DNA from: Candidatus Hodarchaeota archaeon
GTDB lineage: Archaea; Asgardarchaeota; Heimdallarchaeia; Hodarchaeales; Hodarchaeaceae
Assembly: GCA_029856365.1 (NCBI GenBank)
Contig: JAHQWW010000071.1
Location: forward strand, 1 to 19,148
DNA: 19,148 nt
Direction: 5' to 3'
This document shows, one piece after another, positions 1,577-18,508 of this stretch. Every line of letters begins with the position of its first letter. Within the stretch, counting starts at the first letter, position 1. The notes beneath the pieces are model-generated. The model saw only the letters and a program-made list of their open reading frames with translations. It was not told where the DNA came from and did no database searches. The position numbers were made by a program, and so were the translations under genes.

Positions 1577-3157
1577 ATGGATCCCAAAGAAAAAAGTTTT
1601 TTATCAGAAATTAGTGATATTTCAGGTCAAAAACTACTAAAAGTTGATAAGGTGGGATATGGAAGAAATGGTTATGTTGAGCAGCGCAATCATATAATAA
1701 AATTATCCATTTCCAATCTAAAACTTGATTATATCCCGGAAAGTATAGAAAATTTAACTGAACTAAATGCTCTTCATATGGGGGGAAATTATCTAACTAA
1801 AATATCAGATCCGATTTTAACCCTAAAGAATTTGGAACTTTTGGAAGCTTGGGAAAATAGGATTGAATCAATACCTAAAGATATTGGGGTTTTGGATAAG
1901 GTTTGGCGATTACATCTTGCAGGGAATAAAATTACCGAACTACCGTTTTCCATAGGTAATCTACCTATGAAGAAGCTGTATCTCAAACATAACAATGTTG
2001 GTTATGTTCCTGAAAGTATTGGGAATTGGATACATCTCGATGTTTTCGGTCTGCCAATCAATAATCTTCCAACACTACCTGAAACTATTAGTGGTTGGAA
2101 AAATGTACGCGTAATTTCACTCTGGCAAAATAAGCTTAAAGCGTTACCAGATGTTCAACTCAACGTTAAAGAATTACGTATTAATAACAATTTTTTTACT
2201 GAAGTCCCTCCTCGGGTGTATGAGATCAAACAATTAAGGAAGCTTTGGTTGAATAGCAATCAATTGACAGAGATACCAGAAATTTCGAGTGGTCATCTTC
2301 AAAATTTATGGTTTCTAGATTTACAGAATAATCTCCTTTCTTCATTACCTAAGTCTCTTCAATATTTACCTAACCTTCGTGATTTAAGACTCTCAGGCAA
2401 CCTGTTTGAGTCGTATCCAAGCTGGTTGGATTCTCTTAAAGGTTGTAAAGTTGACACCACGACTCATAGGCGACAAATACAACAACCAGATTATATTGGA
2501 GTCAAGAAATATGTGAAATATCTCGAAGATAATCACTTACCAATAGAACACTTAGTAGAGATAAAACAATTCCAGAGATTTCTTGAGAATGAGAAAGGAT
2601 TCTCCAGAATTGTGAAAGCAAAGGCTAATGATGTTAAAGATTATATTGCGCAGGGGGCAATTACAGCTTTTACATTGAGATCTTTGTATCTTTATTTCTC
2701 TTGGCTTCAAGATTATCCTTTGCGTCAAATTATCAAAAAAGAATTAGAAAATTTCGCAAAGATAATGAGTATTAATCTTCAAGATGTCAGCAGACTTGCA
2801 AAGGAATCGTTGGCTGTTACTTCATTATTATCATTGGACGTAACAGAAGAAGAGACCCCTAGCATTGTTTCCCGGCCCCAAATAATTGAACATAAAATTG
2901 AAGGGGAAGAATGGGAGTATTTCGTAGCAAGATTGGAGATAACTTCTTTAGATGCATTGAAAATCCTCTTAAAGTCTTCAAGACCAAAAATTGCACTTGA
3001 AAAATTTGCTAATAGCCAAAACAGACTTCCAGAAACCCTTATTGAATCAATTAACGAAATAGCATTGGAATGTATTGGTGATCTATTATTGGATCAAGAG
3101 ACCTATCAAATCACTGAAAAAGCATACGAACAGAAATTACGTGAAATTTCATTGTGA
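1577..3157 (+). CDS. Leucine-rich-repeat protein with helical middle domain and C-terminal TerB_C-like domain
   Basis: About 11 LxxLxLxxN repeats (~1690-2450). C-terminal ~130 aa (INLQDVSRLAKES...EEWEYFVARL...LPETLIESINEIALECIGDLLLD) align by eye with the C-terminus of the 9128-12622 protein. Confidence 0.88.
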   Translation: MDPKEKSFLSEISDISGQKLLKVDKVGYGRNGYVEQRNHIIKLSISNLKLDYIPESIENLTELNALHMGGNYLTKISDPILTLKNLELLEAWENRIESIPKDIGVLDKVWRLHLAGNKITELPFSIGNLPMKKLYLKHNNVGYVPESIGNWIHLDVFGLPINNLPTLPETISGWKNVRVISLWQNKLKALPDVQLNVKELRINNNFFTEVPPRVYEIKQLRKLWLNSNQLTEIPEISSGHLQNLWFLDLQNNLLSSLPKSLQYLPNLRDLRLSGNLFESYPSWLDSLKGCKVDTTTHRRQIQQPDYIGVKKYVKYLEDNHLPIEHLVEIKQFQRFLENEKGFSRIVKAKANDVKDYIAQGAITAFTLRSLYLYFSWLQDYPLRQIIKKELENFAKIMSINLQDVSRLAKESLAVTSLLSLDVTEEETPSIVSRPQIIEHKIEGEEWEYFVARLEITSLDALKILLKSSRPKIALEKFANSQNRLPETLIESINEIALECIGDLLLDQETYQITEKAYEQKLREISL

Positions 3158-3753: not shown

Positions 3754-5421
3754 TCATCGTTTTTGCTTTTTGCGGAAAGAGATTATCACACCTGTAGCAC
3801 TGAGAAGATAAATGAAACTTGGGAAATTCACTTCCACTGGAGTGGTTGTAGGAGATGGTGGGAGAGTTGGGAGATCCGTAAAATTCAATTGAGATATACA
3901 GACATCGGATTGGCCATTCAATGTCTTATTCAATGCATTGTTTGTTACGGGATAATCTGCGGAATCGGTGCTACCTACAATAACCACGGAATTCTCACTA
4001 AGAAGTAGATAATCAGGTTTATTCGGCCCCCAAATTCCACTCTGCCACAGAGTGGGTTCATATTCACTTCCACCTAGATATGAGGAATACAAAATGCAGG
4101 AACCATTTGATGGCATTTTCGTAATTATAAAATCGAAATCTCCTTTGTTTGTTGTGGCATAGGCATTTGAGCTTGTTGGATAATTGTCAGACGCAGAGAC
4201 ACCCAATAGATAAATATTGTTCTGGTTATCTAGAAGAATTTTTTCAAACACATCTAAATCTAAACCTCCAAGATAGCTGGAATAGAGCAATTCTCCACTT
4301 GAAGCTATTTTCATTAAAATACCATCATCGACCCCTTCTATGGAATTGAATGTCTTATCAAACGCATTCGAGGTGATTTCTATATCTGAAGAACATGTAA
4401 ACCCTGCCAAGTACATTGTTCCAGATCCATCTACAGCCATATCAAAAACTGTATCGGGGGCAGAACCGCTTACATACGTCGAATACAGCAGTTCGGATCC
4501 ATCCAGTGATATTTTTGCAATGAATCCATCACAATTGTAATCCCCAACTGATTTACCCACAGGATCAAAAGCATTGGATGTGATTGGGAGATCTAGAGAG
4601 TATGTCTGCCCAGAAATATAGATATTATTTTCAGTGTCTAATAAGATGTTTAAGTAAACTTCTTGCATCGAACCCCCAAAAAAAGTGGAATAAAGGAGTA
4701 AGGAGCCATTCGATGCTAATTTTGAAACAAAAGCATCCCATTCCCCGTTATGTGTTGTATTCAACGCGTCTGGTGTTGTTGGAAAGTCAGTTGATTCGGT
4801 AAATCCTGACAAGTAGATATTATCAGCTTCATCTACAGCCAAGCTGCGAGCGTTCTCTTCCGCATCGGATCCACCAAGATATGTAGAGAACAAGAGATCA
4901 GATCCATTTGCTGCTAATTTAAGAACAAACATATCTCCTGTTCCACTATATGTATCATCATATGCACCAGGGGTCACGGGAAAATCAGATGAATGTGTTG
5001 GTCCATGAACTATAATATTATCTGAAGAATCAACTGCAATCGCAATTTGTGACGCCCAATGGTCTTGTGAATAATGATGTAACTCGTCTTCACTTCCTCC
5101 AATATATGTTGAGAAAATTAATGATGACCCATCTGGGGAAAATTTACTCACAAACACATCCACACCTCCATTATGGGTTTCATCGTATGCCCCAGAAGTT
5201 ACAGGAAAGTCCGTTGAATATGTTAATCCTGCGATAATGATATTTCCTTGACTATCTTGAATTGTTGCGGTTCCAATATCAATCGCTGATCCTCCCAAGA
5301 ATGTGGAATACACTAAATCATCTAAATCTAGATTTTCAGTAGTAACAGGATTTATTCCTTGTCCTAATGAGAATGATACAAAAGTAATTCCTATAATTAA
5401 TAACCATTTTTTCTTCATCAT
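3754..5421 (-). CDS. Secreted/surface SBBP-repeat beta-propeller protein with C-terminal membrane anchor
   Basis: Signal peptide MMKKKWLLIIGITF; about 7 repeats of YSTYLGGS..D......D..xNIYxxGxTxSxDFPxT..AxD; Pro/Thr linker followed by FPSF-hydrophobic helix-RKKQKR. Confidence 0.88.
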   Translation of the reverse strand: MMKKKWLLIIGITFVSFSLGQGINPVTTENLDLDDLVYSTFLGGSAIDIGTATIQDSQGNIIIAGLTYSTDFPVTSGAYDETHNGGVDVFVSKFSPDGSSLIFSTYIGGSEDELHHYSQDHWASQIAIAVDSSDNIIVHGPTHSSDFPVTPGAYDDTYSGTGDMFVLKLAANGSDLLFSTYLGGSDAEENARSLAVDEADNIYLSGFTESTDFPTTPDALNTTHNGEWDAFVSKLASNGSLLLYSTFFGGSMQEVYLNILLDTENNIYISGQTYSLDLPITSNAFDPVGKSVGDYNCDGFIAKISLDGSELLYSTYVSGSAPDTVFDMAVDGSGTMYLAGFTCSSDIEITSNAFDKTFNSIEGVDDGILMKIASSGELLYSSYLGGLDLDVFEKILLDNQNNIYLLGVSASDNYPTSSNAYATTNKGDFDFIITKMPSNGSCILYSSYLGGSEYEPTLWQSGIWGPNKPDYLLLSENSVVIVGSTDSADYPVTNNALNKTLNGQSDVCISQLNFTDLPTLPPSPTTTPVEVNFPSFIYLLSATGVIISFRKKQKR

Positions 5422-5542
5422 TTGCTTTTCACCTGTTTTGTATTTTTAATCATCCTACAAAGCATGATTTGCAAAGTTTACAAAAGATATTAGTCTCAAT
5501 TGTCACAAAAACCAATATATATACTTATTCATGGTTTTCTAA

Positions 5543-5591
5543 TGTTCTAACATTTATACAACTTATTATTTACTGTACCAAAGTTAGAACA
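5543..5591. promoter_or_regulatory. Tandem palindromic operator-like sites (consensus TGTWCTAA-N2-TTAGAACA) upstream of the SBBP gene
   Basis: TGTTCTAA-CA-TTTATACA at 5543-5560 and TGTACCAA-AG-TTAGAACA at 5574-5591, 31 bp apart; a near-identical site lies at 8477-8496. Confidence 0.6.
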
Positions 5592-5636
5592 CTAGTTAAG
5601 AATTAGAAAAAAATTATAAAAAATTGCTGAAAGATT

Positions 5637-6212
5637 TCAATTTGGTCGAATTCCCCACATTTTTAATGATTCAAAAACGAATGCCAGAGTTCCTATTGTT
5701 AGAAATACAAAGAGTAGGACACTTCCAGGATGTGTGATAAAATCATCACCCATAATGAATGATAAGATAAAAAAAGCAAAAAATCCACAGATAAATAAAC
5801 TGAGATAGATCGAAAAACGGGGGATCATTCGATACCCAAAACGAATATAAAAACCAAGAATACCAGATTTAACTTCCTCCTTTATATAATATTTTTCTGA
5901 TTCCTCATGTTTTGAAATAATTCCCAATTCGGTCAGCTTGTTGAGTTGATATGAAACTATGCCTGGTGAAGAAAAGTTTAATGATTTCTGAATTTCACGT
6001 ACACCAGCAGCTCCATGCGTTATAAGGTACCAATATACTTGAAGCGGTTTTCCCTTGAGAACTTCATCATATTGTATAGATTCTTTTTCACTCTGCATTT
6101 TTGACATACCTGAAGGGAATAATCTTCGGATTAAGGTAGGAAAAGTATACTGATTTGAAAATTCATCATCTTTTATAAGGGAAAAATCTTTCTTTCCATC
6201 AAGTGAGTTCAT
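5637..6212 (-). CDS. Winged-HTH transcriptional regulator with two C-terminal transmembrane helices
   Basis: LKGKPLQVYWYL...GVREIQKSLNFSSPGIVSYQLNKLTELGII (archaeal wHTH) followed by two hydrophobic helices after MIPRF. ATGA overlap with the upstream gene; the true start may be ATG 6107 or 6098. Confidence 0.85.
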   Translation of the reverse strand: MNSLDGKKDFSLIKDDEFSNQYTFPTLIRRLFPSGMSKMQSEKESIQYDEVLKGKPLQVYWYLITHGAAGVREIQKSLNFSSPGIVSYQLNKLTELGIISKHEESEKYYIKEEVKSGILGFYIRFGYRMIPRFSIYLSLFICGFFAFFILSFIMGDDFITHPGSVLLFVFLTIGTLAFVFESLKMWGIRPN

Positions 6213-8362
6213 TTTAATTCATACTTCCTCCTTAAATAATTTACCTGCTTATAATTATAATAAATAGTGACAGTGGCAACTGCTATGATTAACCCCGAGA
6301 CTATTGATATTCCAAATAAATATTTAAAGGTTTTTTCTATAATTTCTGTTCCTACACGAAGTAGAATATCTCCTTTTACTTTAATCTCAACATATTGAAG
6401 GCTTGAATTTCTCACTATTGATTGTATTTCATTCCACTCTGCAGATTGATCATCCCATTGAAATACTGGAATCTCCTCTTCTCCAGAAATAACAATTTCA
6501 CTAGGCTCATAATAACAACGAAACAGATATTCTTCTTTTTGGTTATCAACTGTTGTTTTAAAGTATTTCCCTCTTTCTTTACGATTAAGATTGAATGTAT
6601 TCAAAGAAGTACTCATTTCTGAAGTCACTGTGAGTTGATTTTTTGTATTTATTATTCCATCAGTAAAAGGAAAATAAATAGATTGATTGATGATTTCTAT
6701 ATTCTCGATTATTTTTGGAGTAATTTTCGGACTATTGATAAAATTAAAATATACTCCTCCTTCAGGGATTGGATCCACCCAAATATAAGACTCAACTGAT
6801 GCTGTTTTTAGATATCCATGCTCAAATTCTGCTAATAGTATATGAGGTACATATTCATGTACACGCTGTAATATTTTGGAGAGGTAAAAAGGTTTTTCTT
6901 GTTTCACCGGAGTTTGTATAATCAATGAAGTATAAGATTCCAGGATAGAATCTGATACTTGGGTCCCAATATTGTTTGAACCTTGTGTATTGAGCAGGGA
7001 GTATAAGTCATAACCCCAATCTCCACTAAAACCCCATGATACGAAATAAATGCCATAATCTCCTCGATAAAAGTCATTATACCAATCAATGCTATCAGAA
7101 ATCGAATAAATACATAATATACCAATTTCATCTAGATAATTCCCAAATTGTATAATATCATCTTTCATCCAAGGGACTCCAGCAACTTTTAGAGAAAAAC
7201 GGTAGCCATCTAGTTCACTTCTTCGTGGATAACCAGCTTTATCTAAAAGGATATTAGCATGTTCGGGATCATAAGAAAGACTCAGAATAGAGGCATTCCC
7301 TAACGTGTCATCTGGAATTATGTTTTTGGCAAGGAAATATTTTAGAGGGAACCGATTCTTTTGTTGTTTTAGATATGTTTCTTTGTTAATTGCATAGTTT
7401 AATGCAAGACGGACCTCAACTTTGGTAAGCTCTGGTTTTTGATGATTAAGAAAACCAAGTACCATACCTCGGGGATAGTGATATACTAGCTTCCAATAAT
7501 CTAGATTTAAATCTGAATAATTACAAATAGAGGATATGAACGGGCCTACTTCTCCTTTTTGATCTAGCACTGCTTCTACAGCATCTTCTAATGACCAATA
7601 TAAGAGATAATATATCGTTTCAAAAGGAGGATCCCCACGATAATAATTTGGAAATTTTTTAAACGTATAATTATAATAATTGTCTTCCTGGGTGATCATT
7701 TGTAAGACATAAGGACCTGTTCCGATTGGCCAGTTAAATTCCTCGATATTAATTTCAGGATAACTTGAGAATGAGGGAAATCGAATTTTAGCTGCTTGAA
7801 TTCGTATGAAAGGGGAGTAGGGCATTGAAAAATTGATACGGATTGTATATTCATCAATAATTTGTACTGATTCAAGAGGCATTGTAAAATAGTCATAAAT
7901 TGCCTCGTTCGGTTTTTCTGGATCATACCACAACAATGTAGTTGGATCAAGGATCATATTGAATGCTGCTACAACTGCTGAAGCATTGAATAGTGATCCA
8001 TCATGACACATAATATTTTCTTTTAAATAAAAAGTCCACTGCTTACTATCATTCGTTACAACCCATTGTTTGGCTAGAACGGGAATTACATCACCTGTTA
8101 CGGGATCTACTTCTACAAGTGTATCGAAGGGTAGCGATAATAATGAATGTGTGTCGTACATCGGATGAAATGTAGGCACAAACTTTCCTGCCATACCATT
8201 AATTATGGTGATTGATTTTGGAGGATATTGATTTTGTACACTTTTTTCGATTTGACCATTGGTAATATTAGTATCGATCTGAGGTATTGCATAGGTATTC
8301 ATTGAAATGACTGCAAGTAAAGATAATTGTAAAATGACTAAAAAAGAAAATATTCTCTTCAT
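6209..8362 (-). CDS. ABC-type family-5 (peptide/nickel, OppA/DppA-like) solute-binding protein with extra C-terminal domain and TM anchor
   Basis: Signal peptide; FDTLVE..P.LAKQW...WTFYLK...HDGS.FNA.AV, PIGTGPY, VRLALNYAINK and YDPEHA..LLDKAGY motifs; C-terminal hydrophobic helix with basic tail. Confidence 0.88.
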   Translation of the reverse strand: MKRIFSFLVILQLSLLAVISMNTYAIPQIDTNITNGQIEKSVQNQYPPKSITIINGMAGKFVPTFHPMYDTHSLLSLPFDTLVEVDPVTGDVIPVLAKQWVVTNDSKQWTFYLKENIMCHDGSLFNASAVVAAFNMILDPTTLLWYDPEKPNEAIYDYFTMPLESVQIIDEYTIRINFSMPYSPFIRIQAAKIRFPSFSSYPEINIEEFNWPIGTGPYVLQMITQEDNYYNYTFKKFPNYYRGDPPFETIYYLLYWSLEDAVEAVLDQKGEVGPFISSICNYSDLNLDYWKLVYHYPRGMVLGFLNHQKPELTKVEVRLALNYAINKETYLKQQKNRFPLKYFLAKNIIPDDTLGNASILSLSYDPEHANILLDKAGYPRRSELDGYRFSLKVAGVPWMKDDIIQFGNYLDEIGILCIYSISDSIDWYNDFYRGDYGIYFVSWGFSGDWGYDLYSLLNTQGSNNIGTQVSDSILESYTSLIIQTPVKQEKPFYLSKILQRVHEYVPHILLAEFEHGYLKTASVESYIWVDPIPEGGVYFNFINSPKITPKIIENIEIINQSIYFPFTDGIINTKNQLTVTSEMSTSLNTFNLNRKERGKYFKTTVDNQKEEYLFRCYYEPSEIVISGEEEIPVFQWDDQSAEWNEIQSIVRNSSLQYVEIKVKGDILLRVGTEIIEKTFKYLFGISIVSGLIIAVATVTIYYNYKQVNYLRRKYELK

Positions 8363-8922: not shown

Positions 8923-9127
8923 TGATTGACATCTAATGGATGTTTTCACACTCTAGATAGGGTTCAGAGTCATTCTGATATTGAAGAAGGTGTGTAATAA
9001 TATTATAAACACTTATCCATATTATCCTCTTATTGAAATAAAGTTCTCTCTCTAACTCTGAACACGGTATTAATTAGAGTTGATTGAGTAAAAAGAATCT
9101 TATGAGTTGTACGGTAGGCATCTTTCG

Positions 9128-12100
9128 ATGTCAACAACTATAACAATTGTTGCAGAGAATTTTCGGGATAAAACACAAAAAATAGGAGATTCTCCGTTAT
9201 CTATCCCCAAAAAATTCGCAGATGTTTCTCCTGTGAAGGTAACGAGAATTATTATAGCTTTTCAAGGCAACTCTATCCTTAACATTGGAGATTACTTTTC
9301 TTTTCAGATTTCCTCCGAAAAATCTATAATCCAGATAGAAACTCAAACTGAATTGTATGTCCAAATTGATGAAATAACCTCATTTGAATCAATATTAGGA
9401 TATATTAATGAGGAGGAAATCGAATCAATCCTTCAAATATCTCCAAAAGAAATTAATTATTGGATTGTAGCAATTGTCCTTGGATACTATTCTCCAAGAC
9501 GAAAGAAGATACTAATGCCAGAAGATTCCCTCATAGGAAAGGTAGGGAAGATTTCTGATTCAGAATCTATATTAATTTTTCTAAACCAATATATGGAATG
9601 TCTATTTTACAGTTTCCCCCTTAAACTAATAAATTACTTAGTTTATAACTCGATCCAAGGAAGTAAGTTCTGTCAAAGAGGGAATACCAAGATTATGGAG
9701 AAAATTCTTCCTAAAATCTTAAAAAACGTCAACAAACGCTTTTTAAAATATGAAAATAAAGAATTTCTTAAAATATTTCCGCCGCAAACGAGTTTCGCCA
9801 TTGTAAAAGAAACAGCAAATATCAATGATATTAAGCAGGAATATATTGATTGGCTTGCTTCTAATAAACCAATGGTGAATTTTTTAACTGATATAATGAA
9901 ATACACTGAAAAAAAATTAAGCCTAATTGTGAAATATCGAGGGAAAGTAGAAGTAAATCCAAGACCACTTCCTGATCACATCAGAGAAATTGTTCAAACA
10001 GAACTAAAGAAATATGAAGGAAGACTCCAACCAAGAAGAAAACTGGATCAAAAACAACCAGTCTTTGCAGATTTTGAAATTGGTTTCACGCCAGAGAAAC
10101 AAATCGAAATATCTATCATAGAACCTGAAGTGAATTCACAGGTTAGTATTGACAATAAGAAACCAATCCCCATTGAAATCAAAAAAATCATCTCCAAAAC
10201 TAGTGAAAATCAAGAAGATATTAGTGAACTTGAATCTAAGATGAAGCTCGCTGCTCACTCTCTGGACTTTAAGAAAGCATCCAGAATTCGAGAGAGAATT
10301 GAAGAGTTAAAGGGAGAAGATAACGATAGAGAAACAGAAAAACAACCTTCTGACTTCAAAACGACTTCAGTAGAGAAGTCTCTTAGAACTCCCAAATTCG
10401 TACCATTTGACCAATACTGGCCAACCTTAGACACCCTGAATGAGGATCAAAAGAGGTGGTACGATTATTGGGTGTCAGAAATCGAAAACGGACATTATTA
10501 TCCAACCGATTTGTCATATATTTTTCTTTATATTTATCAAGCACTTGATTATGAAGATAAAGAAAAAGGCTATCGCATTTTACGGGACCTTTGGATTCAT
10601 TATCGAAAAGAACATCCTAAACTGGATCGTTACTTGATTGATTGGATAACGGATTATATTCTTCTTCATAAATGTCATTATGATCAAAGGACTATACTAA
10701 AGGAATTATTCAAATTTCATTCAAAATACACACTTGAATGTCTTGATTCAATACTGACATTATTTCCCCCTCGCTCATTTAAAGAAATGCCAATTGATTG
10801 GATTAATGTTCTGACAAATAACAGTATAAGAAGTAGTTCATTTTATGTGTCGAAACCCAATGTCATGAATGAAATAATACCTGAAGTACTTGATGCAATT
10901 GATCGATATTATCATGAGAATGAAAATATAGGCTTATTAGAGAAATTTAAACCTGATAAAGTCACACGGTTCGTTTTTGATCGAGCACTCAAGGATGAAA
11001 GTTATCTTACTAAGACTATTGAAGTTTTATCCTACACAAAATCGCTACCTCTTCTTGTTTTCATCTCCGAGGTTGTAAGCACAACAGAAAGTAAACTACG
11101 TAAGTATTATCGTTTTCCAGCCCTTCCTCATATTAGTATATTAGAAAGAGAAATCGAAAAAGTAATTGAAACCACATTTACGAAATTTATCAATGAGTTG
11201 AGTCAAACAGAACGTGAGACAGAATTATCCTTCATTGATGCAGCTCAGAAATATGTTGACAGAGTTGAAGATGACGATAACGCTAAACCTGTTCCTCTCT
11301 ACCAATTTCAACCAAATTATCAAGATATGACAAAAGCTCAGTTGAAATGGTACTTTTATTGGCGTAACCACATCAGGAATGGAAATTTTCTTTCTACTCA
11401 GATTGGGTACATTATTTTATATATTTATGAAATTATCAATGATATTGGAACCCAGGATCATCAGGAGGGTTATAAACGATTATTAGCTATCTGGGAATAT
11501 TATCGTATTGATAATCCTGAATTGGATGAATATTTACCTGAGTGGATCGTGGAATATTCAATACTAAAAGAAATTCCTGTTGATGGTATCGAAAAACTCT
11601 ATCATAATATCTTAAAAAGATTAGATAGGAGAGAACAAAGAGATCTCCGATATGAATTAACGGAACTCCTACTTTCTCAGTATCATCATGAAGTATTTAA
11701 CAAAATTCCAATCAAAATGATCTATGAGCTCGTAGGATATCTTAATTTTTTACCCTATACCAGATTAAACAAATCTGTTCGGCTCACAATGGATCAACAC
11801 GTTAGTACTATCCTAAATGAAGTGAATCAATACTATTTGCAAAAGTACAAAAAATCTTTGTTTGAATTCTATCACCCAACCAAGAAAAGGAGAATCCCCT
11901 TTGTTCTCGCCCGATATTTTGGTGATATCGATATTATGGAGGTAAAAAGCTACACACGACAATTCTTAAATTTTTTAGATAATACCATAAGATTTATCCA
12001 TAATCGTTTTCGTGATATCGAGTTAGATACAACCAAAACCCGATTAAAGGCTGAAATTCCTGATCCTGAAGTTGAAGCATTAATTGATCATTATTTTGTT

Positions 12101-12622
12101 GATAACTTAAATGCCACAAACATCACCCCTAAATATTCTAAAATAGCATTACAGGTTCAAAGTGGCGATCTAGGTGTAGACCAAACTAAAATAAAAGCAT
12201 TAACCGAAGAATCTGATGAAATTCAAATCCTTTTAACAAGCTCAGATACATTTGAGTTTGAGGAGGAAGAATCTGTACCAGCGTTAGAAGAAGTTCAAGA
12301 AGAAGTTGAAGTAATGGTTAATCAAGAATCTGTTCAGGAAGTAGAAGCAAGCGAACCAGATGAGTGGGAACTATTCAGATTAAAATTGACTGATCTTCAA
12401 TTAAGAATTTTAACGATATTAATAACCAGTGAAAACCCTAAAGAGCAATTAAATCAAATAGCTGAACAAACTGGGACGTTACCAGAAGCGATAATAGAGT
12501 CAATAAACGAAACTGCAATTGAGATCATAGATGATGTAATAATAGATGGTGAACTCCTTAAACTAATAGATGAGTATTTAGATAATATTAAGTCAATTAT
12601 CAAGATATTATGGTGTAAGTAA
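9128..12622 (+). CDS. sngA: Shango SngA-like protein: unknown N-terminal region, UVR (UvrB/C) motif, two TerB_N domains, acidic linker, TerB_C
   Basis: TerB_N signature twice (FVPFDQYWPT...QKRWYDYW...TDLSYIFLYIYQ; PVPLYQFQPNY...QLKWYFYWR...TQIGYIILYIYEIIN); TerB_C signature LPEAIIESINETAIEIIDDVII; followed by a DUF2791 ATPase and helicase genes. ATG 9128 after GGTAGG is preferred over TTG 9107. Confidence 0.85.
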   Translation: MSTTITIVAENFRDKTQKIGDSPLSIPKKFADVSPVKVTRIIIAFQGNSILNIGDYFSFQISSEKSIIQIETQTELYVQIDEITSFESILGYINEEEIESILQISPKEINYWIVAIVLGYYSPRRKKILMPEDSLIGKVGKISDSESILIFLNQYMECLFYSFPLKLINYLVYNSIQGSKFCQRGNTKIMEKILPKILKNVNKRFLKYENKEFLKIFPPQTSFAIVKETANINDIKQEYIDWLASNKPMVNFLTDIMKYTEKKLSLIVKYRGKVEVNPRPLPDHIREIVQTELKKYEGRLQPRRKLDQKQPVFADFEIGFTPEKQIEISIIEPEVNSQVSIDNKKPIPIEIKKIISKTSENQEDISELESKMKLAAHSLDFKKASRIRERIEELKGEDNDRETEKQPSDFKTTSVEKSLRTPKFVPFDQYWPTLDTLNEDQKRWYDYWVSEIENGHYYPTDLSYIFLYIYQALDYEDKEKGYRILRDLWIHYRKEHPKLDRYLIDWITDYILLHKCHYDQRTILKELFKFHSKYTLECLDSILTLFPPRSFKEMPIDWINVLTNNSIRSSSFYVSKPNVMNEIIPEVLDAIDRYYHENENIGLLEKFKPDKVTRFVFDRALKDESYLTKTIEVLSYTKSLPLLVFISEVVSTTESKLRKYYRFPALPHISILEREIEKVIETTFTKFINELSQTERETELSFIDAAQKYVDRVEDDDNAKPVPLYQFQPNYQDMTKAQLKWYFYWRNHIRNGNFLSTQIGYIILYIYEIINDIGTQDHQEGYKRLLAIWEYYRIDNPELDEYLPEWIVEYSILKEIPVDGIEKLYHNILKRLDRREQRDLRYELTELLLSQYHHEVFNKIPIKMIYELVGYLNFLPYTRLNKSVRLTMDQHVSTILNEVNQYYLQKYKKSLFEFYHPTKKRRIPFVLARYFGDIDIMEVKSYTRQFLNFLDNTIRFIHNRFRDIELDTTKTRLKAEIPDPEVEALIDHYFVDNLNATNITPKYSKIALQVQSGDLGVDQTKIKALTEESDEIQILLTSSDTFEFEEEESVPALEEVQEEVEVMVNQESVQEVEASEPDEWELFRLKLTDLQLRILTILITSENPKEQLNQIAEQTGTLPEAIIESINETAIEIIDDVIIDGELLKLIDEYLDNIKSIIKILWCK

Positions 12623-12657
12623 GATCCTATCATATTTACTTGGAAGGACGTAATGTA

Positions 12658-13989
12658 ATGATGTCAAAGAAAAGGATACCTCAACGTGTATCAGCGACAA
12701 TACTTAAATCCTTGAGTGCTGGTGTAGTACCTCGTATAGGCTTAGAACACATAGCTGTAGGCCGAAAAGAGGAAATAGAATCATTATTAGAAGATTTGGA
12801 AAACATTGAAGTTGGTAGTGCAGCTTTTCGGTTTTTCATTGGACGATATGGATCGGGAAAGAGTTTCTTAATTCAACTCCTAAGAAACTATGCAATGGAT
12901 CGGGATTTTGTGGTTGCTGATGTAGATTTATCCCCAGCTCGACGATTCATTGGAGCAGGAAACAAAGGTGTTGCTACGTATCGTGAGCTCATTTCAAATA
13001 TGTCCACAAAAACACGTCCTAGTGGTGGCGCATTAACAGCTATTTTAGAGAAATGGATATCCAAGATCCAATCCACAGTGATCACCGAAAAAGGAATCAA
13101 ACCTACTGATCCTGTTTTTGTTGATCAGGTGGAAACAGAGATAATAAATGCCGTAAATAATATAAAAGATCTCGTTCATGGCTTCGACTTTGCTATCGTC
13201 ATCTCAACATATTGGCGAGGTCATAAACTAGGTGAGGAAGAAACAAAAGAAAAGGCACTTCGATGGTTACGAGGGGAATATACTACAAAAACTGAGGCAC
13301 GAAATAGCATAAGTGTTAGTATCATTGTTGATGATGATTCTTGGTATGATTATATCAAATTATTGGCACGATTTGTCACAGAAATTGGATATAAAGGATT
13401 ATTAATCTTTTTTGATGAAGCTGTCAACTTGTATAAGATAACTCATACTCAATCGCGGACTAATAACTATGAAAAACTGTTAACAATGTATAATGACACT
13501 ATGCAAGGAAAAGCTGAATATCTAGGAATTTTTGTTGGAGGAACACCCCAATTTCTTGAAGATAGACGAAGAGGTCTCTATAGTTATGAAGCACTCCATT
13601 CTCGTCTCGTTGAAAGTCGGTTTACTAAAAATGGTTTGCGTGATATATCAGGCCCCGTTATAAAACTTGAACGGTTAACCTTGGAAGAGATTTTTGTACT
13701 TTTAACTCGTGTTATGAATGTTCATGCTCTCCACTATAAATATGAAGCATTCTTAACTAATGATGAGCTTCAAGAATTCATTAAAGTAATAGTCAGTCGC
13801 ATTGGAGCTGATAAACTCCTTACTCCTCGTGAATTTGTTCGGGAGTTCATTATCTTATTAAATGTCTTAAGAAGAAATCCACAACAATCCTTCTTAGGTT
13901 TAATTCATGGAGAAGACTTCAAACCACAAGTTCCAAGCCAGTTAGATGAATCTGTACAAGGAACGGAATATGAGGAATTTACCTTATGA
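12658..13989 (+). CDS. sngB: Shango SngB-like P-loop ATPase (DUF2791 / BrxD family)
   Basis: SLSAGVVPRIGL...VGR..E N-terminus, Walker A GRYGSGKS, Walker B LLIFFDEA, RRGLYSYEALHSRL, TPREFVREF. ATG 12658 or 12661 follows GGAAGGA. Confidence 0.9.
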   Translation: MMSKKRIPQRVSATILKSLSAGVVPRIGLEHIAVGRKEEIESLLEDLENIEVGSAAFRFFIGRYGSGKSFLIQLLRNYAMDRDFVVADVDLSPARRFIGAGNKGVATYRELISNMSTKTRPSGGALTAILEKWISKIQSTVITEKGIKPTDPVFVDQVETEIINAVNNIKDLVHGFDFAIVISTYWRGHKLGEEETKEKALRWLRGEYTTKTEARNSISVSIIVDDDSWYDYIKLLARFVTEIGYKGLLIFFDEAVNLYKITHTQSRTNNYEKLLTMYNDTMQGKAEYLGIFVGGTPQFLEDRRRGLYSYEALHSRLVESRFTKNGLRDISGPVIKLERLTLEEIFVLLTRVMNVHALHYKYEAFLTNDELQEFIKVIVSRIGADKLLTPREFVREFIILLNVLRRNPQQSFLGLIHGEDFKPQVPSQLDESVQGTEYEEFTL

Positions 13990-16223
13990 GTGACGCTATC
14001 TTCAGCCGTTTTCCTGCATTCATTCAAGAATGGATTTACTCGCATGGATGGGAGGAATTACGTGAAATTCAAATAGCTGCAGCTCAAACGATATTTACTA
14101 CAAAAACCCACGTACTATTAGCGACTGGTACCGCAAGTGGAAAGACAGAAGCAGCTTTTTTACCTGCTTTAACACTAATTCATGAAGATCCCCCTGCAAG
14201 TATTGGAATACTTTACATCTCACCTTTGAAAGCTTTAATTAACGATCAATTTAACCGTATAGAGGAATTATTAGAGGAAGCAGAGATTTCAGCTTGGCCT
14301 TGGCACGGTGATATCCCTCGAAATCTGAAAAGAAAACTAATTGAAAATCCCAATGGTGTTCTCCAAATTACACCCGAATCTATGGAAAGTTTGTTAATAA
14401 ACAGACAACAAGATTTACGTAGAATGTTTGGTGATCTCCGATTTGTGATTATAGATGAAGTCCATGTCTTTATGAACGCAGAGAGAGGGATTCAAATTTT
14501 ATGTCAATTAGAACGCCTAGGGAACATCATTGGATATCATCCCCGTCGTATAGGTCTTTCAGCAACTCTAAGCGATTATAGTTCTGCAGAAAAGTGGTTA
14601 AGTTCAGGTACCAATATTCCAGTGAATACTCCAAAGGTCCAAGGATTAATCAAAAGAATAAGATTGGCTGTTGAGAATTTTATTGATCCTAATCCTAACC
14701 CCTCTGGAATAATGCAATATAGTGAGGCTGGTGAATTAATTGCTCCTACTTCAGAACCCTCTTCTGAGCCATATCCCTCAAATTTGTATTTATTTGATCA
14801 AACGTTAAATCGTCAATGTTTGATCTTTACTAACACACGGGAAAGAGCAGAAACTACAATCAATGCGCTAAGAGCAATTGCTGATCAAAAAAAATACCCA
14901 AATCGGTATTATATTCACCATGGAAGTATTTCAGCTACTCTAAGAGAAGAAGCTGAAACAATCATGAAAGCAGGAGACATCCCTTCTGTAACAGCATGTT
15001 CAGTTACCTTGGAATTAGGGATTGATATTGGATCTCTGGAAAGAATTATTCAAATTGGATCCCCACGAACAGTATCCAGCTTTTTACAACGTCTAGGGCG
15101 ATCAGGTAGAAAAAAAGCTGATGTATCTGAAATACTTTTTATTCATTCAGAAGAAGAACCATCAGATAATAAACCACTACCTTACTTAATTCCATGGGAA
15201 TTAATCCAATCAATTGCAATTATTAATTTATATTTAGAAGAGCGTTGGATTGAACCAATCCAAGAATTAAAATCTCCATTTAGTTTATTATACCACCAAA
15301 CAATGTCTTCTCTCGCTTCAGCAGGTGAACTCTCTCCTCAGGCTCTTGCTCAACGCGTACTATCATTAACACCATTTCAACACGTTTCTCAAGACGATTA
15401 TCGTATTCTCATTCGTCATCTTATTGAATTGAACCACATCGAGCAGATTGAAGATGGAGGGTTAATTATTGGTTTAGATGGTGAACGAATTATACGTAAC
15501 TATCGATTCTATGCCGTCTTCCCTGATGTGGTGGAATGGACGGTAAAGGATGCAGAAGAGTCATTTGATGAAATAGGTAAAATTGGACAGTTATTTCTTC
15601 CAGGTGATCGGTTTCCTCTAGCAGGATATACTTGGGAAGTTAAAGAAATCTATCCAGATCAAAAAATAATAATAGTATCAAAAGTGGGTGGTCGTACGAG
15701 ATATTTTTGGCCTGGAGGAATTGCTCCTGTTCATACTAGGATCCTTCAACAGATGCGAAAAATCCTTTTTGAAGACAAATTTTATCCTTATTTGCAGCCC
15801 AGTGCCATTGAACGGATTCAACAGGTTAGAACACTAGCTCGGAAAGTAGAGATGGATAAACGAGTGCTTTTCCAACTTGCTGGCCATAAATTTGTCCTTA
15901 TCCCTTGGGCTGGATCAATTTCATTTCGTACAATCGGAAGAATATTAGAATTCCATTCTGAAGAATTGGGGATCAGAAGTATAAGTCAACAATCTCCCTA
16001 TTTCTTTTTATTTGAAGCAGAGGATCAATCAAGAGATAATCTTGAATTAGTAATTAAGAAATTGTGTAGTAGAATTAAATCACCTTCTGAACTTATCAAA
16101 GAGGATGAGATCTTTGTCTGGCGGAAATTTGATCAATATATTCCGATGAATCTCCAACAGCAGACATTGATGGATGATTATTTGGATTTGGAAGAAGTTA
16201 AAGATATTATCCAAAGCTGGTGA
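13986..16223 (+). CDS. sngC: Shango SngC-like Lhr-family SF2 DEAD/DEAH helicase, copy 1
   Basis: TASGKTEAAF, PLKALINDQ, TPES, DEVH, SAT, TLELGIDIG, QRLGRSGR; ATGA overlap with the ATPase stop. Confidence 0.92.
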   Translation: MSDAIFSRFPAFIQEWIYSHGWEELREIQIAAAQTIFTTKTHVLLATGTASGKTEAAFLPALTLIHEDPPASIGILYISPLKALINDQFNRIEELLEEAEISAWPWHGDIPRNLKRKLIENPNGVLQITPESMESLLINRQQDLRRMFGDLRFVIIDEVHVFMNAERGIQILCQLERLGNIIGYHPRRIGLSATLSDYSSAEKWLSSGTNIPVNTPKVQGLIKRIRLAVENFIDPNPNPSGIMQYSEAGELIAPTSEPSSEPYPSNLYLFDQTLNRQCLIFTNTRERAETTINALRAIADQKKYPNRYYIHHGSISATLREEAETIMKAGDIPSVTACSVTLELGIDIGSLERIIQIGSPRTVSSFLQRLGRSGRKKADVSEILFIHSEEEPSDNKPLPYLIPWELIQSIAIINLYLEERWIEPIQELKSPFSLLYHQTMSSLASAGELSPQALAQRVLSLTPFQHVSQDDYRILIRHLIELNHIEQIEDGGLIIGLDGERIIRNYRFYAVFPDVVEWTVKDAEESFDEIGKIGQLFLPGDRFPLAGYTWEVKEIYPDQKIIIVSKVGGRTRYFWPGGIAPVHTRILQQMRKILFEDKFYPYLQPSAIERIQQVRTLARKVEMDKRVLFQLAGHKFVLIPWAGSISFRTIGRILEFHSEELGIRSISQQSPYFFLFEAEDQSRDNLELVIKKLCSRIKSPSELIKEDEIFVWRKFDQYIPMNLQQQTLMDDYLDLEEVKDIIQSW

Positions 16224-18508
16224 GGGATCTGGCCTCAGATCAATTCTATCGATTAGCTCCATGGATTCAAGAGTGGATTTATCGGCAACAATGGGAGGTT
16301 TTTAGACCAATTCAAGAAGAGGCTTGTAAAGTCATTTTCGACAGTCCTCATCATCTTCTGTTAGCAACTGGGACTGCTAGTGGGAAGACTGAAGCTGCTT
16401 TATTTCCCATCTTGACTCTATTGGATCAAAACCCTTCCACAAGCGTCGGTGTTTTATATATCGGACCATTAAAAGCCCTTATTAATGACCAGTTCCAGCG
16501 AGTCGAAGATCTCCTCCAAGAGGCAGACATAAAAGTTTGGCGATGGCACGGAGACGTTCCACAGAGTCATAAATCTAAATTAGTACAAAATCCAAGCGGA
16601 ATATTGCAAATAACTCCAGAATCATTAGAAAGCTTATTGATTAATCGTACTGCTAATTTACGTAGACTTTTTGGTGATTTAAGATTCATTATTATTGATG
16701 AAGTTCATGCATTCATGCCTCAATTATCTGATAGAGGAAGACAGGTTATTTGTCAACTCGAACGTCTTCAAGAGTATACAACCCGAATTACACCACGACG
16801 AGTAGGTCTTTCAGCTACTCTTGGTGATTATTCCTATGCAGAACAGTGGTTAGCATCAGGTACTACTCTACCTGTTGTAACTCCGATAACAAATGAACCC
16901 TCGAAAAAGCTTCGAATTGGTATTGAACATTTTACCGAAACAACATGGTACCAAGCAAAGATGAGAGGCCAACCCCCACCACGCGGCCTTGACCTCCCGT
17001 CCCATAGATGGATCTTTGATTTAACTTTAGGAAGAAAATGTATTATATTCCAGAATGATCGTGAACGAACTGAGTTAATAACTCATGGATTGCGAGAGAT
17101 TGCAGAATCAAAAGGTTTACCAGATGTTTACCATTCACATCATTCCTGTATTGCTGGTCTGTTAAGAGAAGATGCAGAAGAGTTTTTGAAAGAAAAGAAT
17201 GGAGTTCCTCATGTTGTTGCAGCAACTATGACACTAGAACTAGGTATTGATATTTCTGACATTGAAAGAATTATTCATGTTGATAGCCCTCATGCTGTAT
17301 CCACTTTCGTGCAACGTTTGGGAAGATCTGGTCGAGTGAATAATGCATCTGAGATGTTATTTGCTATTTCGGAGAATCCTAAATCCCCGCGTACTCCTCT
17401 TGTATATCAACTCCCTTTTAGGTTATTACAAGCCATGGCTGTTGTGCAGCTCTATCTTGATGAAAGATGGATCGAACCAGCTATTCCACTCAAAAAGCCA
17501 TTTTCCATATTATTCCACCAAACCATGTCAATTCTAGCTGCAGCTGGCGAGCTTTCTCCTCAAGGGTTAGCCAAAAGAGTATTATCTCTGACTCCTTTTA
17601 AAAATATTAACATGAACGAATTTCGTGTATTATTAAACCATCTAATTAACAATGATTATATAGAGCAAATTCAAGATGGTGGACTCATTCTTGGCTTAGC
17701 TGGAGAGAAAATTGTCCGAAACTACCGCTTTTATGCTGTATTTCGAGACTACGCAGTTGACTATTCAGTCAAAGAGGGAACACATGAAATTGGCCATATT
17801 GAACAACTCCTTGAACCAGGTGATCAATTGTTAATTGGGGGGTATCCTTATCGAATAACTCAAGTTTATCCCAAACAAAAGGTTATGCTAGCAGAAAAGA
17901 TAAATGAAAAACCATTGTATGTATGGCCAGGGAGATTAGCTCCTGTTCATACCAGAGTTCTTCAACGAATGCGGCGTTCTCTCTTTGAAGATCAAAGTTA
18001 TTCATTTCTTCAGAGAGCAGCAAGACTTCGTCTGGAAGAAGGACGTCTATTCGCAAAAGCGCAACAGTTAGACAGGAAGGTTTTATTGCAGGAGTCAAGA
18101 AACAGATATAGTCTACTACCGTGGATGGGATCCACACCCTTTAGGACACTTCTTCGTATATTGAAATTTTTAGGCCCAGACACTCTAGGCATTAGATGGT
18201 TACAGCCTGAACCTGTTACGACAACTGATCCCCATCTTCCAGTCCATGTGGTTCAATTTGAAACAAGTAGTTATAATAACGTTAATTCTCTATATAGGGA
18301 TCTATACAATCTAGTAGAAAGCGTTACAGAGAAAGAATTACATCGACTATATGAGCAGACTGAGAAGTTCATTTATGAACGCTACCATCATTTATTACCA
18401 ATAGAATTGCAGCGGGAGGTCTTAGTTCATAACTATCTAGATCTAAATGAGCTGAAGGATGTTATTCGTACGTGGGAGGATTATTCCATTTACTGGCATA
18501 ACGAATAG
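16220..18508 (+). CDS. sngC: Shango SngC-like Lhr-family SF2 DEAD/DEAH helicase, copy 2
   Basis: Same motif set intact (TASGKTEAA, DEVH, SAT, TLELGID, QRLGRSGR); GTGA overlap with the copy 1 stop. Confidence 0.92.
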   Translation: MRDLASDQFYRLAPWIQEWIYRQQWEVFRPIQEEACKVIFDSPHHLLLATGTASGKTEAALFPILTLLDQNPSTSVGVLYIGPLKALINDQFQRVEDLLQEADIKVWRWHGDVPQSHKSKLVQNPSGILQITPESLESLLINRTANLRRLFGDLRFIIIDEVHAFMPQLSDRGRQVICQLERLQEYTTRITPRRVGLSATLGDYSYAEQWLASGTTLPVVTPITNEPSKKLRIGIEHFTETTWYQAKMRGQPPPRGLDLPSHRWIFDLTLGRKCIIFQNDRERTELITHGLREIAESKGLPDVYHSHHSCIAGLLREDAEEFLKEKNGVPHVVAATMTLELGIDISDIERIIHVDSPHAVSTFVQRLGRSGRVNNASEMLFAISENPKSPRTPLVYQLPFRLLQAMAVVQLYLDERWIEPAIPLKKPFSILFHQTMSILAAAGELSPQGLAKRVLSLTPFKNINMNEFRVLLNHLINNDYIEQIQDGGLILGLAGEKIVRNYRFYAVFRDYAVDYSVKEGTHEIGHIEQLLEPGDQLLIGGYPYRITQVYPKQKVMLAEKINEKPLYVWPGRLAPVHTRVLQRMRRSLFEDQSYSFLQRAARLRLEEGRLFAKAQQLDRKVLLQESRNRYSLLPWMGSTPFRTLLRILKFLGPDTLGIRWLQPEPVTTTDPHLPVHVVQFETSSYNNVNSLYRDLYNLVESVTEKELHRLYEQTEKFIYERYHHLLPIELQREVLVHNYLDLNELKDVIRTWEDYSIYWHNE

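What the first reader, a model, noticed from the sequence alone, without database searches (positions are those of the whole stretch)
13986..18508. Two tandem, translationally coupled Lhr-like helicase paralogues in one Shango operon
Seen: 745 and 762 aa helicases joined by ATGA/GTGA overlaps. Both keep motifs I, II, III and VI, are similar in the RecA and winged-helix regions, and diverge at the C-terminus and at loops (HHGSI vs HHSCI; IQIGSP vs IHVDSP; different Pro-rich inserts). Both frames are intact and the DNA is well diverged, so this is an old retained duplication rather than an assembly repeat. Known: described Shango has one helicase gene. Inference: a heterodimer or sub-functionalised effectors, possibly one per TerB_N domain or one per TerB_C-bearing protein.
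Basis: partly seen in the sequence, partly recalled or inferred. Interest (0 to 1): 0.72.

Follow-up and report, generated by a model that had tools for sequence, protein, structure and literature searches.

The report
Two-helicase Shango defence operon, Asgard archaeon
An Asgard archaeon carries the known Shango anti-virus gene set with two old, intact helicase genes where the described system has one; the same doubling arose separately in some Clostridia, which suggests the two helicases work as a pair.

Summary
Window 13986-16223 and 16220-18508 encode two full-length SngC (Lhr-core-like) helicases. They are 49% identical and follow SngA and SngB through conserved ATGA and GTGA overlaps.

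Both keep every helicase motif. Both are under equally strong purifying selection within the genus (dN/dS about 0.05).

The duplication is old. All 9 Shango-bearing genomes among 399 Asgard genomes have both copies, and the upstream and downstream copies separate on the tree.

A second, independent duplication exists in Clostridia, in at least 13 species. A test of a single shared origin rejects it (p about 2e-13).

Elsewhere the doubling was not found: 0 of 64 cyanobacterial genomes, and 1 of 78 non-Asgard loci in one scan.

In both lineages the downstream copy is the more derived, mainly outside the first motor domain.

The clostridial SngA proteins examined have one TerB_N, and no extra TerB_C gene was seen.

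A heteromeric helicase pair is the best reading but is untested.

I found no paper describing this form. First readers of this scan noted the same pair in four other genomes.

Verdict: a new variant of a known system, of moderate interest.

The parts
13986..16223 (+). SngC1, the upstream Shango helicase (745 aa). It is Lhr-core-like: RecA1, RecA2, winged helix, domain 4 and a C-terminal region.
   Evidence: PADLOC SngC 1.5e-225. Pfam DEAD/Helicase_C, weak WH_Lhr. AF2 model pLDDT 85.4, pTM 0.85. Best fold match is Lhr 5v9x_A, TM 0.69. dN/dS 0.055.
16220..18508 (+). SngC2, the downstream Shango helicase paralogue (762 aa, GTG start). All motor motifs are kept. Motif IV reads HHS instead of HHG.
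   Evidence: PADLOC SngC 6e-211. 49% identical to SngC1. The C2 clade has 100% support and 80%. dN/dS 0.052.
13986..13989 (+). ATGA overlap of the SngB stop codon and the SngC1 start codon.
   Evidence: Sequence. Conserved in 5 species.
16220..16223 (+). GTGA overlap of the SngC2 start codon and the SngC1 stop codon.
   Evidence: Sequence. Conserved in 5 species.
12640..13989 (+). SngB, a BrxD-like P-loop ATPase. The real start is probably one of the two ATG codons at 12658/12661.
   Evidence: Pfam BrxC_BrxD 3e-166. PADLOC SngB 4e-187, BrxD 6.7e-52. dN/dS 0.037.
9107..12622 (+). SngA with an N-terminal extension, a UVR motif, two TerB_N units and one TerB_C. The real start is probably the ATG at 9128.
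   Evidence: Pfam TerB_N (2 stretches), TerB_C and UVR. PADLOC SngA 2.6e-92. Two TerB_N-region hits in all 5 SngA proteins of the genus, against one in all 21 bacterial SngA examined. In L032 a TAG lies just upstream of the ATG.
1577..3157 (+). LRR-TerB_C protein, probably the fifth gene of the cassette. It lies 288-374 bp upstream of SngA in three sister species (four loci).
   Evidence: Pfam LRR plus TerB_C. PADLOC SngA tail 6.8e-17. Adjacent to SngA in L030, L032, L033 and L059.

Best explanation
Shown: this is a Shango anti-virus operon (SngA TerB protein, SngB BrxD-like ATPase, SngC Lhr-core-like helicase). Its helicase gene was duplicated long ago. Both copies have since been kept intact, tightly linked and under strong purifying selection across Asgard archaea. 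Inferred: the two helicases act together as a paralogous, asymmetric pair (a hetero-oligomer) that replaces the single SngC of ordinary Shango. The upstream copy stays close to the ancestral protein. The downstream copy keeps a working ATP motor but has changed in the winged-helix, domain-4 and C-terminal regions, so it probably makes different contacts with DNA or with SngA/SngB. The 4-base overlaps would allow coupled translation of the three genes, and so balanced amounts of the proteins.
For: Both proteins match SngC at full length and are 49% identical. All motor motifs are present in both. dN/dS is 0.055 against 0.052, with dS about 1, in 5-6 species. The ATGA and GTGA overlaps are conserved. 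All 9 of 9 Shango-bearing Asgard genomes have both copies, including one from a different family. The downstream copies form one clade (100% support, 80%); the upstream copies are an unresolved grade beside it. An independent duplication in Clostridia shows the same gene order and the same asymmetry. The AU test rejects a single origin at p 1.8e-13. In both lineages the downstream copy has the longer path on the tree and keeps fewer invariant sites: 152 against 165, and 140 against 162, of 186. The sites lost by the two downstream copies overlap more than expected (15 against 8.4, p 0.005). These losses lie mostly outside RecA1.
Against: No physical interaction was tested or modelled, because only monomers can be folded here. 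The closest solved relatives, Lhr-core and MrfA, are as far as I know monomeric (from memory, not checked here), so even a homo-oligomeric ancestor is an assumption. No fused SngC-SngC protein was found among longer proteins (weak evidence). A few relatives may stand alone: L143, and P0009 and P0011, which have no partner on a contig of the same length. Some clostridial second copies carry a stop or are truncated. The site-overlap test uses small groups, was not corrected for multiple tests, and is confounded by sites that are generally less constrained.
Confidence: 0.45

Rival explanations
1. Two parallel channels: each helicase serves its own sensor module (one per TerB_N unit of SngA, or one for SngA and one for the LRR-TerB_C protein). 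The system would then be two Shango circuits sharing one SngB.
For: In the Asgard genus, in every locus with readable flanks, the two helicases co-occur with a doubled TerB_N in SngA and with an LRR-TerB_C gene next to SngA. SngA and LRR evolve faster (dN/dS 0.18 and 0.15) than the helicases, as sensors often do.
Against: The independent clostridial two-helicase loci examined have one TerB_N, one TerB_C and no second TerB_C gene upstream. Helicase doubling therefore does not need sensor doubling. There is only one SngB. The SngA of the second Asgard family (G282) is cut off by the contig end, so the link cannot be checked outside one genus.
Confidence: 0.2
2. The downstream copy is mainly a regulatory or scaffolding partner, not a second unwinding motor. 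This would resemble the second cassette of tandem Ski2-like helicases such as Brr2 (comparison from memory).
For: The downstream copy is the more derived in both lineages. It has fixed changes at positions invariant in 118 single SngC proteins: F61L and G309S in motif IV. Its relaxed sites cluster in accessory domains.
Against: Walker A, DEVH, SAT, motif V and QRLGRSGR are all intact in C2. C2 is as constrained as C1. RecA1 invariant sites are kept at 72 of 76.
Confidence: 0.2
3. A redundant or dosage duplicate with no distinct role, or a copy on its way to loss.
For: A few clostridial loci have a stop or a truncation in the second copy: L229, L276 and G429.
Against: Both copies are retained across two Asgard families and at least 13 clostridial species at 48-49% identity between copies. 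dN/dS is about 0.05 for both. The gene order and the overlaps are conserved.
Confidence: 0.05
4. An assembly or binning artefact that places two helicase genes side by side.
For: The genome is a fragmented MAG of 204 contigs. In two sister assemblies the copies are not adjacent.
Against: The same junction, with the same 4-base overlap, occurs in five independently assembled species. The copies differ at about half of their residues. The G015 split lies at 100-N scaffold gaps.
Confidence: 0.01

Closest known systems
Shango (SngA-SngB-SngC) anti-phage system; Millman et al. 2022 (bioRxiv 10.1101/2022.05.11.491447), Johnson et al. 2023 (bioRxiv 10.1101/2022.11.11.516204)
   Same: TerB_N/TerB_C protein, PF10923 ATPase and DEAD/DEAH Lhr-like helicase, in the same order in one operon. 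All three PADLOC models match strongly.
   Different: There are two helicase genes instead of one. SngA has a doubled TerB_N and a long N-terminal extension with a UVR motif. An LRR-TerB_C gene accompanies the operon in this genus. The host is an Asgard archaeon. The papers describe a three-gene system.
Clostridial two-helicase Shango loci (for example JAAZDK010000281, MGOY01000036, JAQWDK010000002; loci L063, L227, L230)
   Same: SngA-SngB-SngC-SngC' order. The copies are about 48% identical and tightly linked, and the downstream copy is the more derived.
   Different: An independent duplication. SngA is short, with a single TerB_N, and there is no LRR-TerB_C gene.
BREX type 2 accessory pair BrxD + BrxHI
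   Same: SngB matches BrxD (6.7e-52), and both helicases match BrxHI (8e-115 and 8e-110), as second-best PADLOC hits. It is the same ATPase-plus-Lhr-like-helicase module.
   Different: No other PADLOC model, and so no BREX core model, matched any gene of the window. A TerB protein is present instead.
Lhr-core helicase (M. smegmatis Lhr, PDB 5v9x) and MrfA/YprA (6znp)
   Same: The same four-domain fold: TM 0.69 to 5v9x_A, sequence E 4e-32. The same motif set.
   Different: About 20% identity. These are repair helicases encoded by single genes. There is no TerB or BrxD partner, and no paralogue pair.
Tandem-cassette Ski2-like helicases (Brr2, ASCC3, Slh1): an analogy only
   Same: Two related Ski2/Lhr-type helicase units that work together, with the second unit the more derived (this description is from memory). 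They appear among the fold and sequence matches.
   Different: There the cassettes are fused into one eukaryotic polypeptide and act on RNA. Here they are two separate genes in a defence operon. No fused SngC-SngC form was found. No common origin of the doubling is implied.

Membership tests
Shango | SngA: a protein with TerB_N and TerB_C domains | tested here: met
   Pfam TerB_N 1.3e-42, TerB_C 5.4e-12. PADLOC SngA 2.6e-92.
Shango | SngB: a PF10923 (BrxC/BrxD-type) ATPase | tested here: met
   Pfam 3e-166. PADLOC SngB 4.1e-187.
Shango | SngC: a DEAD/DEAH Lhr-like helicase | tested here: met
   Met twice: PADLOC SngC 1.5e-225 and 6e-211, both full length.
Shango | Three genes adjacent, on the same strand, in the order A-B-C | tested here: met
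   Coordinates. A fourth gene (a second C) is added.
Shango | Protects cells against virus infection | not testable with these tools
   Shown only for the E. coli and P. aeruginosa systems. No archaeal or two-helicase locus has been tested.
Lhr-core-type SF2 helicase | RecA1-RecA2-winged helix-domain 4 fold with motifs I-VI | tested here: met
   AF2 model pLDDT 85.4. Foldseek 5v9x_A E 1.9e-30, TM 0.69.
Lhr-core-type SF2 helicase | 3'-to-5' translocation on single-stranded DNA | not testable with these tools
   Biochemical property. Inferred from the fold only.
BREX type 2 | BREX core genes (such as PglX and PglZ) next to BrxD/BrxHI | tested here: not met
   Apart from one weak Csa3 match, PADLOC matched only Shango-related models for the genes of the window. 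Pfam found none of these domains.
Paralogous heteromeric helicase pair | Physical C1-C2 complex | not testable with these tools
   Only monomers can be folded. No fused form was found among longer proteins.

The most novel reading that the evidence does not exclude
Shango's helicase normally works as a symmetric dimer. In two unrelated lineages it has become an obligate asymmetric heterodimer: one ancestral-type protomer and one protomer that keeps the motor but has re-tuned accessory domains. In Asgard archaea the whole input side was doubled as well (two TerB_N units plus an LRR-TerB_C adaptor), giving a two-input immune sensor built on one ATPase.
Probability: 0.2. Interest if true: 0.65.

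Novelty: new variant of a known kind. Interest (0 to 1): 0.45.

Why it matters
How Shango works is not known; the papers I read offer only a guess that the TerB proteins take part in membrane surveillance. A natural form in which the helicase role is split between two conserved, distinguishable proteins offers a way to ask what the helicase does. One can ask which copy must hydrolyse ATP, which copy contacts SngA or SngB, and which copy meets the viral DNA. The doubling arose twice and went the same way both times: the downstream copy is the more derived, and mainly outside the first motor domain. That argues the helicase acts in more than one copy per complex. It also shows that every Shango locus found in the Asgard genomes searched is this expanded form. 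[quoted passage not shown]

Tried and rejected
The gene neighbourhoods of the further archaeal-clade proteins P0009-P0012, P0016 and P0115 could therefore not be read.
2. The Anantharaman-Iyer-Aravind 2012 Ter paper is not held. A text search for TerB-N/TerB-C plus helicase found nothing useful. A search for 'SngC' returned only unrelated uses of the letters.
3. The bacterial promoter and terminator scan gave no more sites than shuffled sequence. It does not apply to an archaeon.
4. An apparent in-frame TAG in the SngA of L032 turned out to lie upstream of the real ATG start. It is not a stop inside the gene.
5. I looked for a fused two-cassette SngC protein as Rosetta-stone evidence. None was found. 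The longer relatives are Lhr-like helicases fused to PD-(D/E)XK nuclease or to SF1 helicase domains.
6. I tested whether the two TerB_N units of SngA arose together with the helicase doubling. The units are 29% identical and their position on the tree is unresolved.
7. A single shared duplication for archaea and bacteria was rejected by the tree and the AU test.
Full report
WHAT IS THERE

The window is a whole 19,148-base contig of a fragmented genome (204 contigs, 83.6% complete). Records holding near-identical loci are named by their depositors as Heimdallarchaeota, Hodarchaeales, Promethearchaeota or similar, so the host is an Asgard archaeon.

On the + strand lie four genes in a row:
- SngA (9107-12622). 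It has a UVR motif, two TerB_N stretches and one TerB_C.
- SngB (12640-13989). It is a PF10923 ATPase.
- Helicase C1 (13986-16223, 745 aa).
- Helicase C2 (16220-18508, 762 aa).

PADLOC names them SngA (2.6e-92), SngB (4e-187) and SngC twice (1.5e-225 and 6e-211, both end to end). BrxD and BrxHI are the second-best matches.

C1 and C2 are 49% identical along their whole length. SngB/C1 overlap as ATGA and C1/C2 as GTGA.

ARE BOTH COPIES FUNCTIONAL GENES?

Both keep motifs I (GTASGKT), Ia, II (DEVH), III (SAT), V and VI (QRLGRSGR). The one motif difference is HHG in C1 against HHS in C2.

I compared 5-6 species of the genus, where dS is about 0.7-2. Median dN/dS values were:
- C1: 0.055
- C2: 0.052
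- SngB: 0.037
- SngA: 0.178
- upstream LRR-TerB_C gene: 0.150

Neither helicase is relaxed. Some pairs are near saturation at synonymous sites, so the figures are approximate. The conclusion of strong constraint on both copies does not depend on that.

The ATGA and GTGA overlaps are identical in all five species with contiguous loci.

An AlphaFold2 model of C1 (pLDDT 85.4, pTM 0.85) superposes best on mycobacterial Lhr (5v9x_A, TM 0.69), then on MrfA. This agrees with the sequence matches to solved structures. No Shango structure turned up among the sequence or fold matches.

HOW OLD AND HOW WIDESPREAD?

I searched 399 Asgard genomes with the SngC model at E <= 1e-120. Nine genomes had a match: eight in this genus and one (G282) in another family. 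All nine had two copies.

Six of the eight in this genus show the tandem directly.
- In G015 the copies sit apart only because the deposited 'chromosome' is joined by runs of 100 N, exactly at both breakpoints.
- In G017 the two copies lie on different contigs. These contigs stop resembling the window at the C1/C2 junction and continue into unrelated genes. I cannot explain this.

Trees were built with IQ-TREE (LG+C20).
- The archaeal sequences are split from all bacterial SngC with 100% SH-aLRT support.
- The downstream copies, including the second gene of G282 and four further database proteins, form one clade. Its support is 100% and 80%.
- The upstream copies form a grade next to it.

The duplication therefore predates the split of two Asgard families.

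A SECOND, INDEPENDENT DOUBLING

Three scans of species-representative genomes and metagenomes gave:
- 77 single and 1 double among 78 non-Asgard loci;
- 3 doubles against 44 singles among metagenome contigs with enough flank;
- with the bacterial double as query, 12 further two-helicase loci. With L063 that makes 13 species, all named Clostridia or Bacillota, with G+C from 0.38 to 0.56.

These scans were seeded with the doubled forms, so they are enriched for them.

Evenly drawn samples give a fairer rate.
- In the clostridial class, 30 of 399 genomes have SngC. Apart from the seed genome, two have a clear tandem and one has two copies on separate contigs.
- In Cyanobacteria, 64 of 401 genomes have SngC and none has a tandem.

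On the tree the clostridial first copies (95%) and second copies (100%) are sisters inside one bacterial clade (100%), separate from the archaeal pair. Forcing all upstream copies into one clade costs 169.5 log-likelihood units (AU p 1.8e-13). One caveat applies: early gene conversion between tandem copies could mimic this pattern. Because the copies sort cleanly by position across many hosts, any such conversion must have stopped long ago.

A SHARED ASYMMETRY

In both lineages the downstream copy has the longer path from the duplication node, by roughly 1.5 to 2.7 times (branch lengths).

I took 186 alignment columns that are at least 95% conserved in 118 single-copy SngC proteins. The number of these columns kept was:
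- archaeal C1: 165
- archaeal C2: 152
- clostridial first copies: 162
- clostridial second copies: 140

The columns lost by the two downstream copies overlap more than chance predicts (15 against 8.4 expected, p 0.005). Nine columns are lost only in downstream copies and none only in upstream copies. The losses lie mostly in the winged-helix, domain-4 and C-terminal parts. RecA1 is nearly untouched.

This is suggestive, not strong. The clostridial second-copy group has three sequences, six comparisons were made without correction, and weakly constrained sites inflate any overlap.

Within the genus the link holds. All five SngA proteins examined have two TerB_N-region units.

The LRR-TerB_C gene (window 1577-3157) lies 288-374 bp upstream of SngA in three sister species. 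The conserved unit there is five genes. In the window a 5.9-kb block of three minus-strand genes (3754-8362) lies between the LRR-TerB_C gene and SngA.

The link is not general. Every clostridial two-helicase locus I examined has a short SngA with one TerB_N and one TerB_C. I saw no extra TerB_C gene upstream. The SngA of G282 is cut by the contig end, so the link cannot be tested outside one genus. The two TerB_N units are 29% identical and their origin is unresolved.

HOW IT PROBABLY WORKS

How Shango works is not known; the papers I read offer only a guess that the TerB proteins take part in membrane surveillance.

These points are shown:
- two intact motors;
- tight linkage, with overlaps that would allow coupled translation;
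- equal constraint on both copies;
- long retention;
- recurrence in two unrelated lineages with the same polarity of divergence.

From this I infer, at about 45% confidence, that the two proteins act as one asymmetric pair. The upstream copy would keep ancestral contacts. The downstream copy would keep ATP-driven movement but change its accessory surfaces.

The rivals are:
- two parallel channels, one per sensor (about 20%; weakened by the clostridial loci);
- a mainly regulatory second copy (about 20%; weakened by its intact motifs and equal constraint);
- mere redundancy (about 5%).

Several facts count against the pair reading. No interaction could be modelled. Lhr-core and MrfA are, as far as I know, monomers (from memory, not checked here). 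No fused SngC-SngC protein exists among the longer relatives found. A few relatives may stand alone.

COMPARISON WITH WHAT IS KNOWN

The locus meets every sequence-level criterion for Shango. It is not BREX: no other PADLOC model, and so no BREX core model, matched any gene of the window.

Both founding papers describe three genes. A survey of Asgard defences lists Shango as more frequent there than in other prokaryotes, in its one mention of the system. None of the other papers I opened mentions a second helicase.

First readers of this scan noted the same tandem pair in four other genomes. An earlier follow-up described the LRR-TerB_C companion gene in this genus. Both agree with what I found independently.

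VERDICT

This is a real, ancient and selectively maintained two-helicase form of Shango. It is universal in the Asgard loci found, arose independently in Clostridia, and was not seen in the other groups sampled. It is a new variant of a known system. Interest is moderate, mainly as a handle on Shango's unknown mechanism.

Noticed in passing
window 1577-3157 and 3754-8362; L030, L032, L033, L059: In three sister species (four loci) the LRR-TerB_C gene sits 288-374 bp upstream of SngA, giving a five-gene cassette. In the window a 5.9-kb block of three minus-strand genes (SBBP beta-propeller, wHTH regulator, family-5 solute-binding protein) lies between them. L031 has a fragment of the binding-protein gene at the same place.
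   Followed up: partly
window 9107-9130; L032 5181-5190: The TTG at 9107 is probably not the SngA start. In L032 the equivalent upstream stretch contains a TAG, and conservation begins at the ATG that corresponds to window 9128.
   Followed up: yes
G017 contigs C34 (L060) and C257 (L058): In this sister MAG, C1 and C2 are on different contigs. Similarity to the window ends at 16240 on one contig and starts at 16244 on the other, exactly at the C1/C2 junction. The flanks encode a beta-propeller protein, a Cache-HAMP protein and an Orn/Arg decarboxylase. This could be a real insertion or rearrangement, or a mis-assembly; it is not resolved.
   Followed up: partly
L056, L057 (CP070760, 'chromosome' of bin272): The deposited single-contig chromosome is stitched with runs of 100 N. 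The apparent truncation of SngA and the displacement of C2 both fall at such gaps.
   Followed up: yes
L030 and L058 compared with the window and L032: The nitroreductase gene lies downstream of C2 in L030 and G017 but upstream of the LRR gene in the window and L032. The cassette has therefore changed orientation or position relative to its neighbours within the genus.
   Followed up: no
L034, L043, L045 (and L044, L039): The bacterial single-helicase loci closest to C1 have very long SngA proteins (980-1237 aa). They have one TerB_N unit and an uncharacterised N-terminal extension of 500-700 aa.
   Followed up: no
L229, L276, G429:C312:12893-15073: Some clostridial two-helicase loci have a stop codon inside the second helicase, or a truncated second helicase. 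L224 and L229 have an enlarged first copy (810-823 aa).
   Followed up: no
L144 / L222 (WRDG01000033, Defluviitaleaceae): In this two-helicase locus SngB is preceded by a creatininase-family gene, not by SngA. The contig ends inside the second helicase, so SngA may lie elsewhere or be missing.
   Followed up: no
proteins P0183-P0221: The longer relatives of SngC are Lhr-like helicases fused to a PD-(D/E)XK nuclease (about 1600-1870 aa) or to an SF1 helicase module (about 1660-1920 aa). The second kind is a natural two-helicase polypeptide of another sort.
   Followed up: no
L074 (SUSU01000033, Thermoplasmata archaeon): An archaeal Shango locus with a single SngC that nests inside a clade of otherwise bacterial SngC. 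This suggests transfer from bacteria, separate from the Asgard lineage.
   Followed up: no
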